From the IMG/VR virus record IMGVR_UViG_2537562192_000017: 11,735 nucleotides of DNA; one strand, given 5' to 3'. Within the stretch, counting starts at the first letter, position 1. Each line of letters begins with the position of its first letter. Of this stretch, positions 6,001-11,735 are shown in pieces. Made by a program: the position numbers. The stretch is from a virus. Its lineage: Duplodnaviria > Heunggongvirae > Uroviricota > Caudoviricetes.

Positions 6001-9000
6001 GCTGGTTGCGTGAAAAGATGAAGACCCTGTCGCGACACTCAGAGTTGGCGAAGGCGTTCGCGTACGCACTTAACCAGTGGCCGGCACTGACGTACTATGC
6101 GAACGATGGCTGGGTGGAAATCGACAACAACATCGCTGAAAATGCCCTGCGGGCGGTCAGTCTGGGTCGTAAAACTTCCTGTTCTTCGGCTCTGACCATG
6201 GTGGTGAGCGGGGAGCGCTACTGTACAGCCTGATCGGGACGTGCAAACTGAATGACGTGGATCCAGAAAGCTACCTTCGCCATGTGCTTGGCGTCATAGC
6301 AGACTGGCCGGTCAACCGGGTCAGCGAACTGCTTCCGTGGCGCATAGCACTGCCAGCTGAATAACACATCCCCGTCAATACGGCCCTCGCTGTACGCTTA
6401 CGTTTCACCGGTATATTCATCCTGTGCTTCTTCATACGGCAGGTTTTCATAAAGGTTTTCAATTGCGCAGGTTATTACATCCAGTCCCGTCAGATTGCCG
6501 ACAACGTCCACTTCAAATGTTTCGCGGTACTCCCATTGCCCGAGTGTCAGACGAACCGTCTGTCTTGCCATGCGCCCGCATAATGTCATGTTCGGGTCGT
6601 AGTTCATGATTGCCGCAGTAGTGCTATTCATGTTCTGCCTCCGGTGTGTAAATAGCTTTGTCGTGTTTAAATTCACCGTTCCAGTTTTTCTTCATAGGGA
6701 GTTCACCGTTCATGTAAAACTGGTATAAACGGTGGCATCCTTTTTCCAGCAATACGGGGGTGAATTTCGTGAATGTTGCTTTCCCGTGTGGAGTGATCTG
6801 TACTGCTTCTTCGGTCAGGTATCTGTCACGGGCATAAGAGGCCGTGCGCCAGCGGGGTGTTTTCTCCGGATCGCGTTGTTCGTTGAATACCCATTTTCGG
6901 CCAGACAGCCACCACATTATCTGGCTGGTATTTACGCCGTTCAGCGCACGGCAGAACTGGGGAACAGTCATGCCTTTAGAGAAATGTTTTTCCAGACTGT
7001 CTACGGTTGCAGAGAGCGTTTTATTTTCCAGGGCCATAGCTTCAGCCCGTTCTTCGGCCTCAATAACCATCAACGCGAGTTCCTTGCGAGTGAGTACGCG
7101 CTGAACATCGATGTTTTCCCGCTGAGTGAAGTAGAACTCCACAAGGTCTTCGTGATAGTTCCACGCCTGATCCGTTTCCAGCAATTTTGCGTGGTTGGCT
7201 GCGCCGCGTTCGGTCCAGAGGATGAGGGATCGAACATTGCTGGCAATTTTCACAGAGTAGCTTTGAGATACTCTGTGCTTAAGTTCACGTAGTTCATCGC
7301 CTTCCAGCAAAAAATAATGCTTTCCAACAACGAATCGTTCTTCGTTTCGGGAATGATTCTGGCGAATACGGATTGGTGTTGCTCCATAACCTGCCGCCAG
7401 TTGTTCAGTGGTCACAACGCGTTGACCGCGATATTCGATAATTTGCAAATCACGGGCTGCCACCGGCACAAGTTCAGTTGATTTTTTCATCATTACACCT
7501 CACGAAAAGCTGATTAGTGGAACACTCTGGTTTCCGGTTCTGAGTTGTCAGTGGCTTCACTGATAAGCCCATCCAGAATCATGTGCATCGCTCTGTAACC
7601 TTCCATTGTGATGCCGGTTTTTTCGCCGTCGCCCAGAGCGCCGGTGAATGCTTTGTACATAAGAATGCTTTTGAGCAGCCCTGATTCCGCTCCGTAAGTT
7701 TCTATGAGTGCCCATTCCATATAGTTCTGCATAGCGAGACGTAATGGTTTCAGGTAGATTGTCATGCCACCGTTGTGGCCTCTGTACATGGTGCCCTTGT
7801 CTGTACCGCCATTCTCGTTAAGCACTTCGGTCCAGCCGTTTCTGGTGAGCTGTTCAGAGAAGAACATGGCGGTATAAAGCCAGCGCCAGTACATGATTGT
7901 CTTTTCCGGCGCGAGCTCACCTGTCATGCCTTTTTCTTCTGCTTCACTGATGCAACACACTATTTCCAGACCATGCCAGATCGGCTCGTCAAAACAGCCT
8001 TCATCGAGCATTTCCAGTGCTTTGTTGATATCAAGCAGTCCGTAAGGTGTGTGGATACCTTCAGCGGTAAGAAAAAATAACTGTTCAGTTGCAGTCATGG
8101 TTTGCTCTCTTCTTAAATGGTCTTTGCGCGACAAGCCGGCAATACTGATCAATCCAGGCGTTGTATTTTTCCATCCAGGCATCAAACTGTTTTCTGCGTG
8201 CAAGGATGCGCAACAGGCGATAAAAACAACGCCCGTGAGCTCTGTAGTATTCGGGCGTAATTTCTCCCGGATGAAAGACTTCTCCATATTCCGGATGCAT
8301 CAGGCGCTGGTCAGGCAGACGTTTTTCAAAACCTGAACTTTCGAATACCTTCGTTGTCATAAAATGAGCGAGATGTATGATGGCCGTTTTTCGCGTGAAG
8401 CATTTCTTAACTTGTCCGTGGCGGCAGACTCTGTAAACAGGGCCGCAATCGAGTTCGTATTTATGAAAAGCACGGTCGATTCCGGCATTATTTATTGCAC
8501 TGTATTCCGCATCACTGAAGAAAGGTGGAAATACGATGTATCCTTCCATTGTCAGCGCCAGAACGCGCGGATCGGTTTCTGTCAGCCATTCGTTTTCTGT
8601 GAATTCTTCAGAATTAATTTCAATGATTTCAGGTTCTTCTTTCATGGTTACTCCGTGTTCATCCGGTGTTAATTACTTTTATTCACTCTGAGCGCAGCCA
8701 GAAGATGTGGCTCAGCAATTCGTTTGTTGCGATATATCTGTGATACAGCCTGGCCTTTTCAGGTTGTAAAAATCCCCGACAATAAAGCTGTAAATTAATT
8801 ACTGTTCTTAAATAATGTTATTCGTTTTCAGTCCGGCACAGATGCTTTTCTGCTTTGTCTGCTGTACAGGATAATGAGCGGAAAAGACAATTCATCATGT
8901 TTAGCGCATCTGGTGAACCAATATCACCGCTGTCAATAATCACCTGTAACAAAGACAGGCTTTCTGTTATCTCGCAGTGGACATTATCGAGTACTTCAAC

Positions 9001-11735
9001 GCAATTATTCATTTTTCATTATCTCCGTTATTCCGGGAGAGGAGCTATGCTGTTAATGATTAACGCATCTGGTAATATGCCCCTCTTTAATGTAATCGAT
9101 GCATTCATTCAAAAGTTCATCAATGATTAACTTTCCTGATTCAGTCAGATACTCACCATGTTGGTTGATACCGACAGCATCCTGGTATGCAGTGCGTATT
9201 GCTGTTTCACCATCTTTCCGCCCAAACTCACCACGGGTAACGCCTTCAAATCGTAATAGCAACTGGCTTATGAACTGTTCTGTTATTTCAATAGTTGTTA
9301 ACTCTCCATCATGACGCTTTACAGTGAGGAGGTTACTTCCTGTTTTTCGTTTCATCCGCCGCAGTGCTGCAACCGTTATGCGGCGACGATATGCAGAAAT
9401 GTATTCATCTTTCATTTGTTATTTCCCGTATGCCTTTTTGAGAAACAATACTGCAACTGACCAGTATCCGGCATCAGCCATTAATAAAGCGGTTTTATAG
9501 GCATGTTTGTCTTTCATGTGTCATCCCCATTTTAAAATAGTGAGAACTCCCGACCGCAGACCGTCATGTTTTTATGTATGATTGTCTGTTTAATTTCCTT
9601 TATTCGTTCTCAGAGCATCAACATACTCGTAAGCCTTTTCACAGGTTTTATTCATGGAACGAATCAGACAAAGTAAGAAATCATCTGTCTCTCCGTTATC
9701 ACCAGAGTTTTTAAATATAAACTCAAGCATTGACGTGTTTTCTTTTATTTCTGCTGCCACTTCCTCAAGCATAATCAGGGGAGTTTTCATGTTCTTTGTT
9801 CCTTAAATGCATCGCATGCGCTTCTGGCGTATTGTTGTGCCAGTAAAAATATGTCATCCGAAAGTTCATCACATTCTTCATCACTGGAAGCCGAAATGAT
9901 TAACCCCGCTTCAAGCAGTACTGCAATGTGATGAAAAGCTGTTTCCGGTTCGTTGGTGAGGCCTTTGAACATTTTCATCTTACGATTCCTTTGTCGTGTC
10001 AGAATGGAAACTTGTAAGTAACCACATCGGATCGCAGTCAAGTATATTTGCCAGAGGAATCACCTGGCTTGCCAGAGGTTCAGCCTTGCCGTTCTCCCAC
10101 TGGATGATGGTTTCTTCATCAACTCCAAGCAGCGTGGCGAGTTCAGCGGTGGATAGACCGCAGCTTTCGCGTTGGGTGCGGATGCCATCACGGCAATCTT
10201 TTTTGTTTCTCGGAGGTAACAGAATATGTTTTAGTTGTTGGATTTTTTCGATTCCAACCTCAAGGAGTACGTGACGGTTTCTTTCCGATACAGACTCGAG
10301 ACTTTCATGAAGCAGCGATTCTACTTGTTCGATAAGCATCAATTGTGAAGTAGACATAAAAAAACCTCGCAACCAATATTTCGAAATCTAGGTTACGAGT
10401 GAGTAATGTAGGTGTCAAGAGCAATTAATGTTTTTTGTTGAATTAAATTTGCATACGCATCTCAACGACAACACCAATAATTTCGCAATCCCCATTGATG
10501 GGGATCAGTGGATAGCGTGGGTTTAGTGGCTTTAGGAAACATTGCCCAGCGTCTTCTATGTACTGTTTAAGGGTTGCCTCTCCGGAGTTTTTGAGCCTGG
10601 CGACGACATATTTTCCTGAAAAAACTTCTTTGTCAGGGTTAACAAGAATGTTCATGCCTTCAAAAATAGAGAACTCTCCATTCTGTGATGTCATTGAGTC
10701 CCCTTTCACTTCCAGCCAGAAGCCGTGATCGCCCGCATATATATCACTACCAATCCATTCTTCTGGATAAGCTATGTAATCTTCGCAGTTCCAGGGGCCA
10801 GCACTCACCCATGTTAGTTTCGGATATCTATAACGGTTTGGAGAAACTGGCTTAGGATTTCGGACGTTTTGAATGCTATCTGTAGGTGATGGGGCGCTGC
10901 CGTCAAGAAGCCATTTAGGAGAGCATTTCAATGCATCCGCGATTCTAAATAGGTTTGAAGATCTTGTGTCTTGTGAGTCTCCTAACTCTATTTTGCTGAT
11001 TGTTACACGCGAGACACCAGTCAATTTTGCCAGGTCATCTTGTGACATTCCTAGCTGTACTCTGCGCATTAACAGTCTGCCACCAAAGCTATCGTGATCC
11101 ATCTTCTCCCCCTTCTTGTCGAAATAATCGTTTCGAAACAAATATAGCAAAAAATCTTGAAATCTAGGTTTCGGAAAATTAAGATTAATCGAAACAAACG
11201 TGTCGAGGTGGATATGGATTTGTATGAAATTCTAAAAAACATGTTTGGATCGAATGTTGAAATAGGTCGTTATTTTCCCCGAAGGGGAAGGGCTAGAACC
11301 GGACAGGCTGTAGGTAAGTGGAAAACCCGAGGTGTGCCGGAAGATGTGGCGATCCTTTGTCATCTGGATCCCAAAATTCCTTATCAGCATCCGTCGCTCA
11401 TGAATGCCAGTCATGAATCGTGATGTTCTGCCGGAGGCTGTATGTCCCCTGATTACGTTCAGATGGAGATGCCTGCCAGGTACAGCCAGGCAGATTCAGA
11501 GTGGATTAAGCGGCAGTTACAGAGCCTGCCTTCCTCACTGAGACAGAAGGTCGCCCTGAAATACGAGGAGGTTTACGAAGTTACTTTTGATTCCGAGCCT
11601 GTTTCATTCCGTAAGGAGAACAGAGCGAGGCATGAAGCCAATGTACGGCTGCGCAGGTTCGTTGAAACACACGGGCGTGCATTACAGGGGTATACGACTC
11701 AGCCGCCCCTGGCAGGAACGCAACAGCGTACCTGA

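What the first reader, a model, noticed from the sequence alone, without database searches (positions are those of the whole stretch)
8818..9978. Cluster of small acidic proteins just downstream of pL, including a duplicated pair
The 64-aa (8818-9012) and 66-aa (9590-9790) ORFs share an ordered set of motifs (EI.E..S.L..I, SGD.G..D, CL.RS, T..KA, RT.N), so they are paralogs. The 63-aa ORF (9787-9978) is similarly acidic and may be a distant third member. Small, acidic, early-expressed, duplicated phage proteins are the profile of host-takeover or anti-defence factors (DNA mimics, inhibitors of restriction or abortive-infection systems). None matches Ral, Gam, Kil or cIII by eye.
Basis: partly seen in the sequence, partly recalled or inferred. 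Interest (0 to 1): 0.6.

Follow-up and report, generated by a model that had tools for sequence, protein, structure and literature searches.

The report
Small helical-hairpin proteins beside a phage regulator
Three small acidic proteins at the start of a prophage's early-left operon are real genes; two are true paralogues and the third belongs to a different family, and because the same ~60-residue modules serve in related phages as the non-DNA-binding half of the neighbouring DNA-binding regulator, they are more likely protein-binding partners in early phage regulation than DNA mimics.

Summary
The ORFs exist on the minus strand, in the pL operon of a lambdoid E. coli prophage inserted next to rcsB. 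The 64-aa and 66-aa proteins are genuine paralogues: BLASTP E=6e-9, shuffle z=12.7, both phrog_6882, invariant CL(I/L)RS..T motif. The 63-aa protein is not detectably related to them (hhalign E=0.27, at noise level) and belongs to phrog_4587. All three are under purifying selection (dN/dS about 0.05-0.14).

AlphaFold2 predicts a two-helix hairpin for p66 (pLDDT 92) and for p63 (pLDDT 79). No Pfam, NCBIfam, PADLOC or PDB relative was found.

Both module families also occur fused, as the N-terminal domain, to the XRE-type HTH regulator encoded by the first pL gene. Across about 140 related loci that regulator is [hairpin]::HTH and is followed by a free-standing p63-type gene. p66 is accessory, and p64 is a lineage-specific second copy. 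The regulator's N-domain co-varies with immunity type, while HTH, p63 and p66 stay constant.

Best reading (about 0.4): hairpin modules that bundle with each other or with the regulator, SinI/SinR-like in logic. An anti-defence or host-takeover role (about 0.3) is not excluded, but a DNA-mimic role is poorly supported. All are uncharacterised hypothetical proteins.

The parts
10443..11102 (-). cI-type immunity repressor (HTH_3 + Peptidase_S24, 219 aa from the RefSeq start)
   Evidence: Pfam HTH_3 1.7e-14 and Peptidase_S24 4e-23. RefSeq calls it 'LexA family protein'.
10366..10418 (-). Putative pL (-35 TTGACA 10413-10418, 17-nt spacer, -10 TAACCT 10390-10395) with two overlapping 18/19-bp operators (10366-10384, 10381-10398)
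   Evidence: The sequence was read. The operator repeat family also occurs at 11119-11136, 11157-11174 and 11189-11206 in the cI/cro gap. The promoter was read by eye; the consensus scan did not list it because the -10 matches only 3 of 6 positions.
9980..10357 (-). First pL gene: a 125-aa regulator with an N-terminal ~58-aa domain of unclassified type and a C-terminal XRE/P22-C2-type HTH
   Evidence: Pfam HTH_3 2.6e-11 at residues 64-118. PDB matches to P22 C2 (5e-6) and 434 repressor. The HTH part is 60% identical to the HTH of P0055, an A::HTH fusion. The N-domain differs among sister phages and tracks cI type.
9787..9978 (-). p63: 63-aa acidic helix-loop-helix protein, p63-type family (phrog_4587)
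   Evidence: phrog_4587 2.8e-33. 18 alleles, all intact, dN/dS about 0.05. AF2 pLDDT 79 with H11-23 and H33-62. Homologous to the N-domain of the HTH regulator in L009 (BLASTP 1.4e-10; hhalign 95.6%), L010/L011 (about 1e-5) and L025 (8.5e-6).
9590..9790 (-). p66: 66-aa acidic two-helix hairpin, A-type family (phrog_6882); its start overlaps the p63 stop (ATGA)
   Evidence: phrog_6882 4.5e-38. AF2 pLDDT 92 with H4-27 and H34-65. dN/dS 0.10. The family has 51 representatives at 50% identity, several fused to HTH or to other helical domains.
9419..9517 (-). Unannotated 32-aa ORF (MKDKHAYKTALLMADAGYWSVAVLFLKKAYGK) just upstream of p120
   Evidence: Intact in 38 loci with 8 alleles, dN/dS about 0.2-0.4. 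Called as a gene in L050. Translation shown.
9053..9415 (-). p120: conserved 120-aa protein of unknown function (phrog_1737) that closes the hairpin-gene array in nearly all related loci
   Evidence: phrog_1737 7.6e-50. Synteny.
8818..9012 (-). p64: 64-aa acidic, Cys-rich (5 Cys) second A-type copy, in a lineage-specific cassette between p120 and p186
   Evidence: phrog_6882 8.6e-31. Paralogy to p66. GGAG RBS 9 nt upstream. dN/dS 0.14 against the P0011 allele, with 18 nt and 5 aa differences. Present in only about 13 of the fetched loci. Annotated as WP_001057978.1 in one strain but left uncalled in NZ_CP027340.

Best explanation
p63, p66 and p64 are real, pL-transcribed proteins of about 60 residues. 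Each folds into a two-helix antiparallel hairpin.

They represent two separate sequence families: A-type (p66 and its diverged duplicate p64) and p63-type. Both belong to a larger set of interchangeable hairpin modules found at the start of the early-left operon in one group of Enterobacteriaceae lambdoid prophages. The same modules are used, in related phages, as the N-terminal non-DNA-binding domain of the XRE/P22-C2-type HTH regulator encoded by the first pL gene.

The most likely mechanism is protein-protein binding by helix bundling. A hairpin pairs with another hairpin to form a four-helix bundle. The partner could be a second copy of itself, the neighbouring hairpin protein, or the hairpin domain of an HTH regulator. 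The free-standing proteins would thereby modulate the oligomeric state or activity of the early HTH regulator. This is the logic of SinI acting on SinR.

Shown here: the paralogy, the two families, purifying selection, the predicted fold, the domain fusions, the conserved gene order and the mosaic structure. Inferred: oligomerisation, binding to the regulator and any regulatory outcome.
For: 1. Domain fusions. The A module is fused N-terminally to an HTH that is 43-60% identical to the window's own regulator HTH. Examples: P0055 (E=4.9e-23), and P0027, P0042, P0043 and P0053. In L053/L056 this A::HTH::HTH protein is the first gene after the repressor.

2. The p63-type module is the N-domain of the same regulator in L009 (BLASTP 1.4e-10), L010/L011, L025, L133 and L136. 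In the commonest architecture the regulator p63-type::HTH is immediately followed by a free-standing p63-type gene: 22+15 fetched loci, plus the double-HTH variants. That is the regulator-plus-domain-paralogue layout.

3. A third module type (L018-type) is also found both fused to the HTH and free-standing (L042), BLASTP 2.6e-11.

5. ATGA stop/start overlap between the upstream hairpin gene and the A gene occurs in the window, L039, L042, L043, L044 and phage Fraca. This suggests coupled, stoichiometric expression.

6. Strong purifying selection on all three.

7. The SinR/SinI precedent. SinR is an XRE-type HTH plus a two-helix domain. The small protein SinI copies that domain and forms an intermolecular four-helix bundle that abolishes DNA binding (PMC3163267).
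Against:
- In the window itself, the regulator's N-domain is not detectably related to p63 or p66. A strict 'paralogue of its own regulator' relation therefore fails here.
- One p63 cluster accompanies six different N-domain clusters. It does not co-vary with the domain it would be expected to bind.
- Where the A module is fused to the HTH, no free-standing A gene is present.
- L042-L044 and phage Fraca have arrays of free-standing hairpin genes and no HTH gene at all. The modules must therefore be able to act without that regulator.
- Conserved polar residues in helix 2 of the A family (C41, R44, S45, T49) could equally mark a binding site for a conserved host target.
Confidence: 0.4

Rival explanations
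1. Anti-defence or host-takeover effectors. Each hairpin protein binds and inhibits a host protein, such as a restriction, Abi or CRISPR component, a protease, or a cell-division or recombination factor. The HTH fusions are then analogous to anti-CRISPR proteins fused to their Aca-type autoregulator.
For: - Small, acidic and expressed first after derepression.
- No characterised homologue.
- The number and type of hairpin genes vary between related phages, and p64 sits in a lineage-specific replacement cassette.
- Conserved polar patch CL(I/L)RS..T in the A family.
- Arrays of hairpin genes exist without any HTH gene.
- Adjacency of variable small genes to a conserved HTH is the Acr-Aca pattern (established knowledge of anti-CRISPR loci, not tested here).
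Against: - Charge density is modest: net -4 to -7, 17-19% acidic residues. From my own knowledge, this is below the 25-30% typical of Ocr- or ArdA-type DNA mimics.
- All modules share one simple architecture, whereas known anti-defence proteins are structurally diverse.
- p63 is a near-invariant core gene (97-98% identical while its neighbours are 60-80% identical) with dN/dS about 0.05. It is not a fast-evolving accessory gene.
- There is no sequence match to any solved anti-defence protein in the PDB.
- No anti-defence HMM library was available, so this is absence of evidence only.
Confidence: 0.3
2. Inter-prophage weapons. The free-standing hairpins are decoy copies of the N-domains of regulators, or antirepressors of the repressors, belonging to other heteroimmune lambdoid phages. 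They would poison a co-resident or superinfecting competitor in polylysogenic hosts such as STEC.
For: - The regulator's N-domain type is tied one-to-one to immunity (cI) type.
- The window phage carries free-standing p63-type and A-type modules that match the N-domains of regulators of other immunity types, not its own.
- Small proteins that inactivate cI non-proteolytically and decide which prophage wins in polylysogens are documented (PMC10432266).
- The window comes from a STEC-type E. coli lineage.
Against: - The link between N-domain and cI may be plain physical linkage, since the N-domain lies within about 300 bp of oL.
- Identity between p63 and the fused N-domains is only 25-36%, which is probably too low for efficient hetero-bundling.
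- The genes are under pL, so they are silent in an uninduced lysogen.
- In the documented TF-smORF modules the small gene is transcribed divergently from its regulator, unlike here.
Confidence: 0.12
3. Adaptor or chaperone subunits for the conserved downstream proteins (p120, p186), or another structural role unrelated to regulation or defence.
For: p120 closes the hairpin array in nearly every locus, and p186 follows it. Both are conserved and of unknown function (phrog_1737, phrog_1886).
Against: There are no fusions between hairpin modules and p120 or p186 among the 51 family representatives or about 140 loci examined. Fusions to the HTH are frequent.
Confidence: 0.1

Closest known systems
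SinI/SinR (and SlrA/SlrR) of Bacillus subtilis
   Same: An XRE/phage-repressor-type HTH is joined to a two-helix oligomerisation domain. A small protein of about 57 aa is a copy of that domain. It forms an intermolecular four-helix bundle with the regulator and blocks DNA binding (PMC3163267). Here the free-standing ~60-aa two-helix proteins are homologous to the non-DNA-binding domain of an adjacent XRE-type regulator in many sister loci.
   Different: - No sequence similarity: there is no Pfam SinI hit and no PDB hit.
- The domain order is reversed, with the hairpin N-terminal to the HTH.
- The context is a phage pL operon.
- Several unrelated hairpin families are involved.
- In the window, the regulator's own N-domain is not the p63 or A type.
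- No interaction has been shown.
Phage TF-smORF induction modules / Qtip-type small antirepressors (Silpe et al. 2023)
   Same: A phage-encoded XRE-type transcription factor sits next to a small protein of roughly 50-80 aa with no homologues. The module lies beside the immunity repressor gene and differs between co-resident prophages (PMC10432266).
   Different: There the small gene is divergently transcribed and activated by the TF, is independent of the cI-controlled operon, and is shown to inactivate cI. Here the HTH gene and the small genes are co-directional in the cI-repressed pL operon, and no target is known.
Anti-CRISPR (Acr) loci with Aca regulators, including Acr-HTH fusions
   Same: Variable small acidic early genes lie next to, or are fused with, a conserved HTH autoregulator. 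This comparison is from my own knowledge and was not tested here.
   Different: The HTH gene is the first gene, not the last. All the small proteins share one hairpin architecture. p63 is highly conserved. There is no similarity to any solved Acr. Aca membership could not be tested.
ROP/Rom-type 63-residue helical-hairpin homodimers and designed hairpin oligomers
   Different: There is no sequence relationship; the profile search of the whole PDB was empty. p63, p64 and p66 are acidic, which makes ROP-like RNA binding unlikely.
PHROG families phrog_6882, phrog_27579 (A type) and phrog_4587 (p63 type)
   Same: p66 and p64 match phrog_6882 end to end and match the N-terminal half of the 138-aa phrog_27579. 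p63 matches phrog_4587.
   Different: These are database clusters labelled 'unknown function'. They give membership but no mechanism.

Membership tests
A-type hairpin family (phrog_6882) | Full-length profile match and retention of the family's invariant residues (L22, C41, R44, S45, T49 in p66 numbering) | tested here: met
   p66 4.5e-38 and p64 8.6e-31 against phrog_6882. hhalign against the family alignment gives 99.9% for p66 and 99.1% for p64. The invariant columns are kept in both.
A-type hairpin family (phrog_6882) | The 63-aa ORF as a third member | tested here: not met
   BLASTP E=0.5. Shuffle z=-0.2. Profile-profile E=0.27, with reversed-profile controls down to 0.016. It is assigned to phrog_4587 instead.
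SinI/SinR-type regulator and domain-mimic antagonist | The small protein is homologous to the oligomerisation domain of an adjacent HTH regulator | tested here: inconclusive
   Met in sister loci: p63-type::HTH followed by free-standing p63-type in L009, L010/L011, L133 and others. Not met in the window, whose regulator N-domain matches neither p63 nor A.
SinI/SinR-type regulator and domain-mimic antagonist | [quoted passage not shown] | tested here: inconclusive
   The two-helix hairpin is predicted (pLDDT 92 and 79). Bundle formation was not modelled because no multimer tool was available.
SinI/SinR-type regulator and domain-mimic antagonist | Sequence membership of the SinI/SinR oligomerisation-domain family | tested here: not met
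   No Pfam hit at E<=1. No PDB sequence hit.
SinI/SinR-type regulator and domain-mimic antagonist | The heterodimer abolishes DNA binding by the regulator | not testable with these tools
   Needs EMSA or reporter assays.
DNA-mimic anti-restriction proteins (Ocr, ArdA and similar) | Very high density of surface carboxylates imitating the DNA backbone | tested here: not met
   Net charge -4 (p66) and -7 (p64, p63); 17-19% Asp+Glu; pI 4.45-4.64. Predicted to be a simple hairpin.
DNA-mimic anti-restriction proteins (Ocr, ArdA and similar) | Homology to a known mimic | tested here: not met
   Pfam, NCBIfam, PADLOC and PDB profile searches were all empty.
Lambda early-left small proteins (Ral, Kil, cIII, Gam) | Profile match to the corresponding Pfam families | tested here: not met
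   No Pfam family at E<=1 for p63, p64 or p66.
TF-smORF prophage induction module | A small ORF divergently transcribed from, and activated by, the adjacent transcription factor | tested here: not met
   The HTH gene and the small ORFs are co-directional and tightly packed in one operon behind pL. The module architecture is described in PMC10432266.
TF-smORF prophage induction module | The small protein inactivates the cognate cI repressor | not testable with these tools
   Needs a cI-PR reporter assay.
Acr-Aca anti-CRISPR locus | The HTH belongs to a recognised Aca family, and the small protein inhibits a Cas effector | not tested
   No Aca/Acr profile library was available. The nearest solved relatives of the HTH are the P22 C2 and 434 repressors.

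The most novel reading that the evidence does not exclude
The early-left operon of these prophages carries a combinatorial 'hairpin code'. The regulator's N-terminal hairpin is an immunity-linked specificity domain. The free-standing hairpins (p63, p66, p64) are decoy copies of the specificity domains of other immunity types. They would hetero-bundle with, and disable, the early regulators or repressors of competing lambdoid phages in polylysogenic E. coli. This would be a protein-level interference system between prophages, built from exchangeable ~60-residue modules.
Probability: 0.12. Interest if true: 0.8.

Novelty: new variant of a known kind. Interest (0 to 1): 0.5.

Why it matters
The start of the early-left operon is where lambdoid phages place factors that decide the first minutes after induction or infection. 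Yet in this widespread group of Enterobacteriaceae prophages, including ones in Shiga-toxin-producing E. coli lineages, every gene there is annotated as hypothetical.

This work shows that the small genes are exchangeable hairpin modules that double as the non-DNA-binding domain of the first early regulator. It also shows that this domain is swapped together with immunity type. A list of orphan ORFs thereby becomes a testable model: specific pairwise bundling that controls, or is controlled by, an XRE-type regulator.

If the modules act on the regulator, this would be a phage counterpart of SinI/SinR-type control. If they act across phages, it would be a new mechanism of inter-prophage competition. 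If they act on host proteins, they would be a compact new family of early host-takeover factors. Any of the three outcomes can be reached with simple binding and reporter experiments.

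Tried and rejected
- **Family libraries.** Pfam, NCBIfam and PADLOC scans of p63, p64, p66 and p120 gave nothing.
- **Rfam.** A scan of the whole window gave no RNA family. In particular there is no DicF-like sRNA in the intergenic gaps.
- **Promoter/terminator scan of 8000-11735.** It found no more sites than the shuffles did, and no minus-strand terminator inside the operon.
- **PDB sequence-profile searches.** The A family gave nothing. The p63 family gave only designed helical repeats.
- **p63-type against the C-terminal 'B' domain of the 138-aa A::B fusions.** E=0.014, the same as the reversed controls. 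Rejected as evidence of homology.
- **The N-terminal hairpin of X::A fusions (P0017, L040) and the upstream partners in L039 and L042 against the p63-type.** No similarity. A direct p63::p66 Rosetta-stone fusion was therefore not found.
- **The window regulator's N-domain against all module families.** No match.
- **Technical failures.** My first hhalign run used a global-mode flag by mistake and was repeated in local mode. The genome-contig scan failed with the diverse alignment and worked with a tighter one.
- **Literature.** Searches by RefSeq accession gave nothing. Searches on early-left-operon small proteins and on phi467 gave nothing specific.

Full report
**Context.** The window is a lambdoid prophage integrated beside rcsB. 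It is 99.95% identical to E. coli 2015C-3121 (NZ_CP027340). Related DNA occurs in 73 of 5426 complete E. coli genomes, and in 14 of them over at least 80% of the queried 1.75 kb. The early-left operon runs on the minus strand. The cI-type repressor (10443-11102; HTH_3 + Peptidase_S24) is followed by an 85-nt gap. That gap holds a TTGACA-17 nt-TAACCT promoter, read by eye, and two overlapping 18-bp palindromic operators whose relatives occur three times in the cI/cro gap. The gene order is:

- 125-aa HTH protein, 9980-10357
- p63, 9787-9978
- p66, 9590-9790
- a 32-aa ORF, 9419-9517
- p120, 9053-9415
- p64, 8818-9012
- p186, a 212-aa protein and an ORF6N/KilAC protein
- a DUF5406 gene split by an IS66 element
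- xis and int

So the finding's location 'just downstream of pL' is correct. But the first pL gene is the HTH protein, and the small ORFs are not contiguous.

**Checking the observation.** p64 and p66 are paralogues beyond reasonable doubt. BLASTP gives 38% identity over 53 residues, E=6e-9. The Smith-Waterman score lies 12.7 SD above 5000 shuffles, none of which reached it. Both match phrog_6882 over their full length. p63 shows no similarity to either (BLASTP E=0.5; z=-0.2 and -0.6) and belongs to phrog_4587. With enlarged family profiles the p63-type/A-type comparison gives E=0.27, while reversed-profile negative controls reach 0.016. p63 is therefore a different family by every sequence test available. 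All three are acidic, but only mildly: pI 4.45-4.64, net charge -4 to -7.

**Are they real genes?** Yes.

- p63 has 18 alleles in the fetched loci, all intact, with dN about 0.007-0.027 against dS up to 0.2.
- p66 has dN/dS of about 0.10.
- p64 was invariant in the first set of loci. Against the P0011 allele it shows 18 nucleotide but only 5 amino-acid differences, dN/dS 0.14.
- p64 has a GGAG RBS. p63 and p66 overlap by ATGA.
- RefSeq annotates p64 in some strains (WP_001057978.1) but not in the closest genome.

**The informative result: domain fusions.** An exhaustive profile search of 1.8 billion representative proteins found only 51 A-family representatives. All the located ones come from Enterobacteriaceae prophages: Escherichia, Raoultella, Citrobacter, Superficieibacter, Klebsiella. 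Many are longer than 66 aa and carry the module at the N-terminus. There are three kinds of partner:

1. An XRE-type HTH, or two of them, that is 43-60% identical to the HTH of the window's own 125-aa regulator. P0055 gives E=4.9e-23; P0027, P0042, P0043 and P0053 also match.
2. A second helical domain 'B', giving the 138-aa phrog_27579 form.
3. Another hairpin placed in front of the A module (P0017, L040).

The p63-type module behaves the same way. It is the N-terminal domain of the pL-proximal regulator in L009 (BLASTP 1.4e-10; hhalign 95.6%), L010/L011 (about 1e-5), L025 (8.5e-6), L133 and L136. A third type (L018-type) is likewise found fused to the HTH (L018, L004) and free-standing (L042), E=2.6e-11. 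It may be distantly related to the A type (hhalign E=2.2e-4, full length). The HTH part itself is a bona fide phage-repressor DNA-binding domain, closest to P22 C2 and 434 repressor.

**Census of related loci.** An HMM census covered about 140 related loci, with some redundancy because contigs were fetched by more than one query.

- The regulator is nearly always [hairpin]::HTH or [hairpin]::HTH::HTH.
- It is nearly always followed directly by a free-standing p63-type gene, sometimes with an extra N-terminal domain 'Y', or by Y::B.
- The A gene (p66) follows in a subset.
- When A is fused to the HTH there is no free-standing A.
- p64 occurs after p120 in only about 13 loci. In three of them (L049, L051, L052) p66 is absent and a diverged 88-aa p63-type protein is present.
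- L042-L044 and phage Fraca lack the HTH gene and have runs of three to six free-standing hairpin genes of several families before p120.
- phi467, the only sequenced phage with close homologues of p63 and p66, has one A copy. It carries an unrelated 69-aa gene where the window has p64.

**Mosaic structure.** I clustered the parts separately.

- Each regulator N-domain cluster goes with a single cI cluster.
- One HTH-part cluster is joined to seven N-domain clusters.
- One p63 cluster accompanies six N-domain clusters.

The recombination joint therefore lies at the linker between N-domain and HTH. The N-domain travels with the immunity module, while HTH-p63-p66 form a conserved block. This may be simple linkage to oL, or it may mean that the N-domain is an immunity-specific interaction domain. 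It also means that p63 does not co-vary with the domain that a strict SinI-like model would have it bind.

**Interpretation.** The evidence ties both families physically to an early XRE-type regulator. It shows that they are interchangeable helix-hairpin modules.

The most economical mechanism is hairpin-hairpin bundling. The modules would act as oligomerisation or partner-binding units, and the free-standing proteins would modulate the regulator, or each other, by forming homo- or hetero-bundles. SinI does this to SinR (PMC3163267). I put this at about 0.4. The caveats listed under evidence against are serious:

- No binding has been shown.
- The window's own regulator carries a different N-domain.
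- Arrays of hairpin genes exist without any HTH gene.

It fits the position, size, orphan status and variable copy number. It does not fit the uniform simple fold or the extreme conservation of p63, and the specific DNA-mimic idea is poorly supported by the charge data.

A more adventurous reading is that the modules are decoys aimed at regulators or repressors of other immunity types, as a form of inter-prophage competition (about 0.12). The TF-smORF antirepressor modules of Silpe et al. (PMC10432266) share the theme. They differ in architecture: there the small gene is divergent and independent of the cI-controlled operon.

**Novelty and score.** These proteins exist in databases only as 'hypothetical' or as PHROGs of unknown function. 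I found no paper on them. To my knowledge, the modular relation between free-standing hairpin genes and the N-domain of the pL-proximal regulator, and its link to immunity type, has not been described. The underlying principle, a small protein that copies a regulator's domain, is known. I rate it a new variant of a known kind, with interest 0.5.

Noticed in passing
window 9419-9517 (-): An unannotated 32-aa ORF (MKDKHAYKTALLMADAGYWSVAVLFLKKAYGK) lies between p66 and p120, ending 3 nt before the p120 start. It is intact in 38 related loci with 8 alleles, dN/dS about 0.2-0.4, and was called as a gene in one Logan assembly (L050). It is probably a real small basic protein.
   Followed up: partly
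window 4035-6370 (+): An IS66-family element (ISEc8-like: tnpA, tnpB, transposase) is inserted in the DUF5406 gene of the early-left operon. Relative to NZ_CP027340 the window has four single-base deletions, all inside the transposase gene (near 5262, 5280, 5282 and 6171). The last one truncates the ORF at 6233 (467 aa against 512). This is either a decaying copy or sequencing error.
   Followed up: partly
window 10180-10357 (-), and L003-L038: The N-terminal ~60-70 aa of the pL-proximal HTH regulator comes in at least nine sequence clusters. Each is tied to a single cI cluster, while the HTH half is shared. The mosaic joint therefore lies at the domain linker.
   Followed up: yes
window 10366-10398 and 11119-11206: There are five copies of an 18-bp palindromic operator (consensus about TCGAAAC-N4-GTTTCGA): two overlapping copies at pL and three in the cI/cro gap.
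   Followed up: partly
window 8818-9012 (-) and L001 9119-9313: p64 is not annotated in RefSeq NZ_CP027340, although the DNA is identical there. It is annotated as WP_001057978.1 in strain OkiPb01714, so the annotation is inconsistent.
   Followed up: yes
window 7514-8645 (-): The 186-aa ORF (8085-8645) and the next gene overlap. The longest ATG ORF (257 aa, from 8287) overlaps p186 by 203 nt, whereas RefSeq starts the gene at a TTG at 8152 (212 aa; the PHROG match begins at residue 57). The true start is unresolved.
   Followed up: no
L049, L051, L052 (3242-3508): In these loci p66 is absent. The p63-type gene is a diverged 88-aa form with an acidic C-terminal tail, and p64 is the only A-type copy. 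This hints at redundancy between p66 and p64.
   Followed up: partly
L093 4294-4659; L136 4461-4859: A further ~55-aa N-terminal domain ('Y': ...ENITVLHVD.FDY...ADIV...KNR) is fused to a p63-type module in some loci and to a B-type module in others. This suggests that p63-type and B-type modules are functionally interchangeable, even though no sequence homology between them can be shown.
   Followed up: partly
H18, OM284015.1 (Elizabethkingia phage EKP1): A phage recorded as infecting Elizabethkingia (Bacteroidota) carries an A-type protein 54% identical to p66. The family is otherwise seen only in Enterobacteriaceae, so the host assignment or the record may be worth checking.
   Followed up: no
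P0030 (887 aa), P0051 (701 aa), P0061 (994 aa): Three long proteins match the A-family profile through 5-10 short repeated stretches. This is probably coiled-coil or low-complexity noise rather than homology.
   Followed up: no
window 6624-7493 (-): An ORF6N/KilAC (antirepressor-type) protein is encoded in the same early-left operon, so the operon carries several candidate regulators of repressor activity.
   Followed up: no
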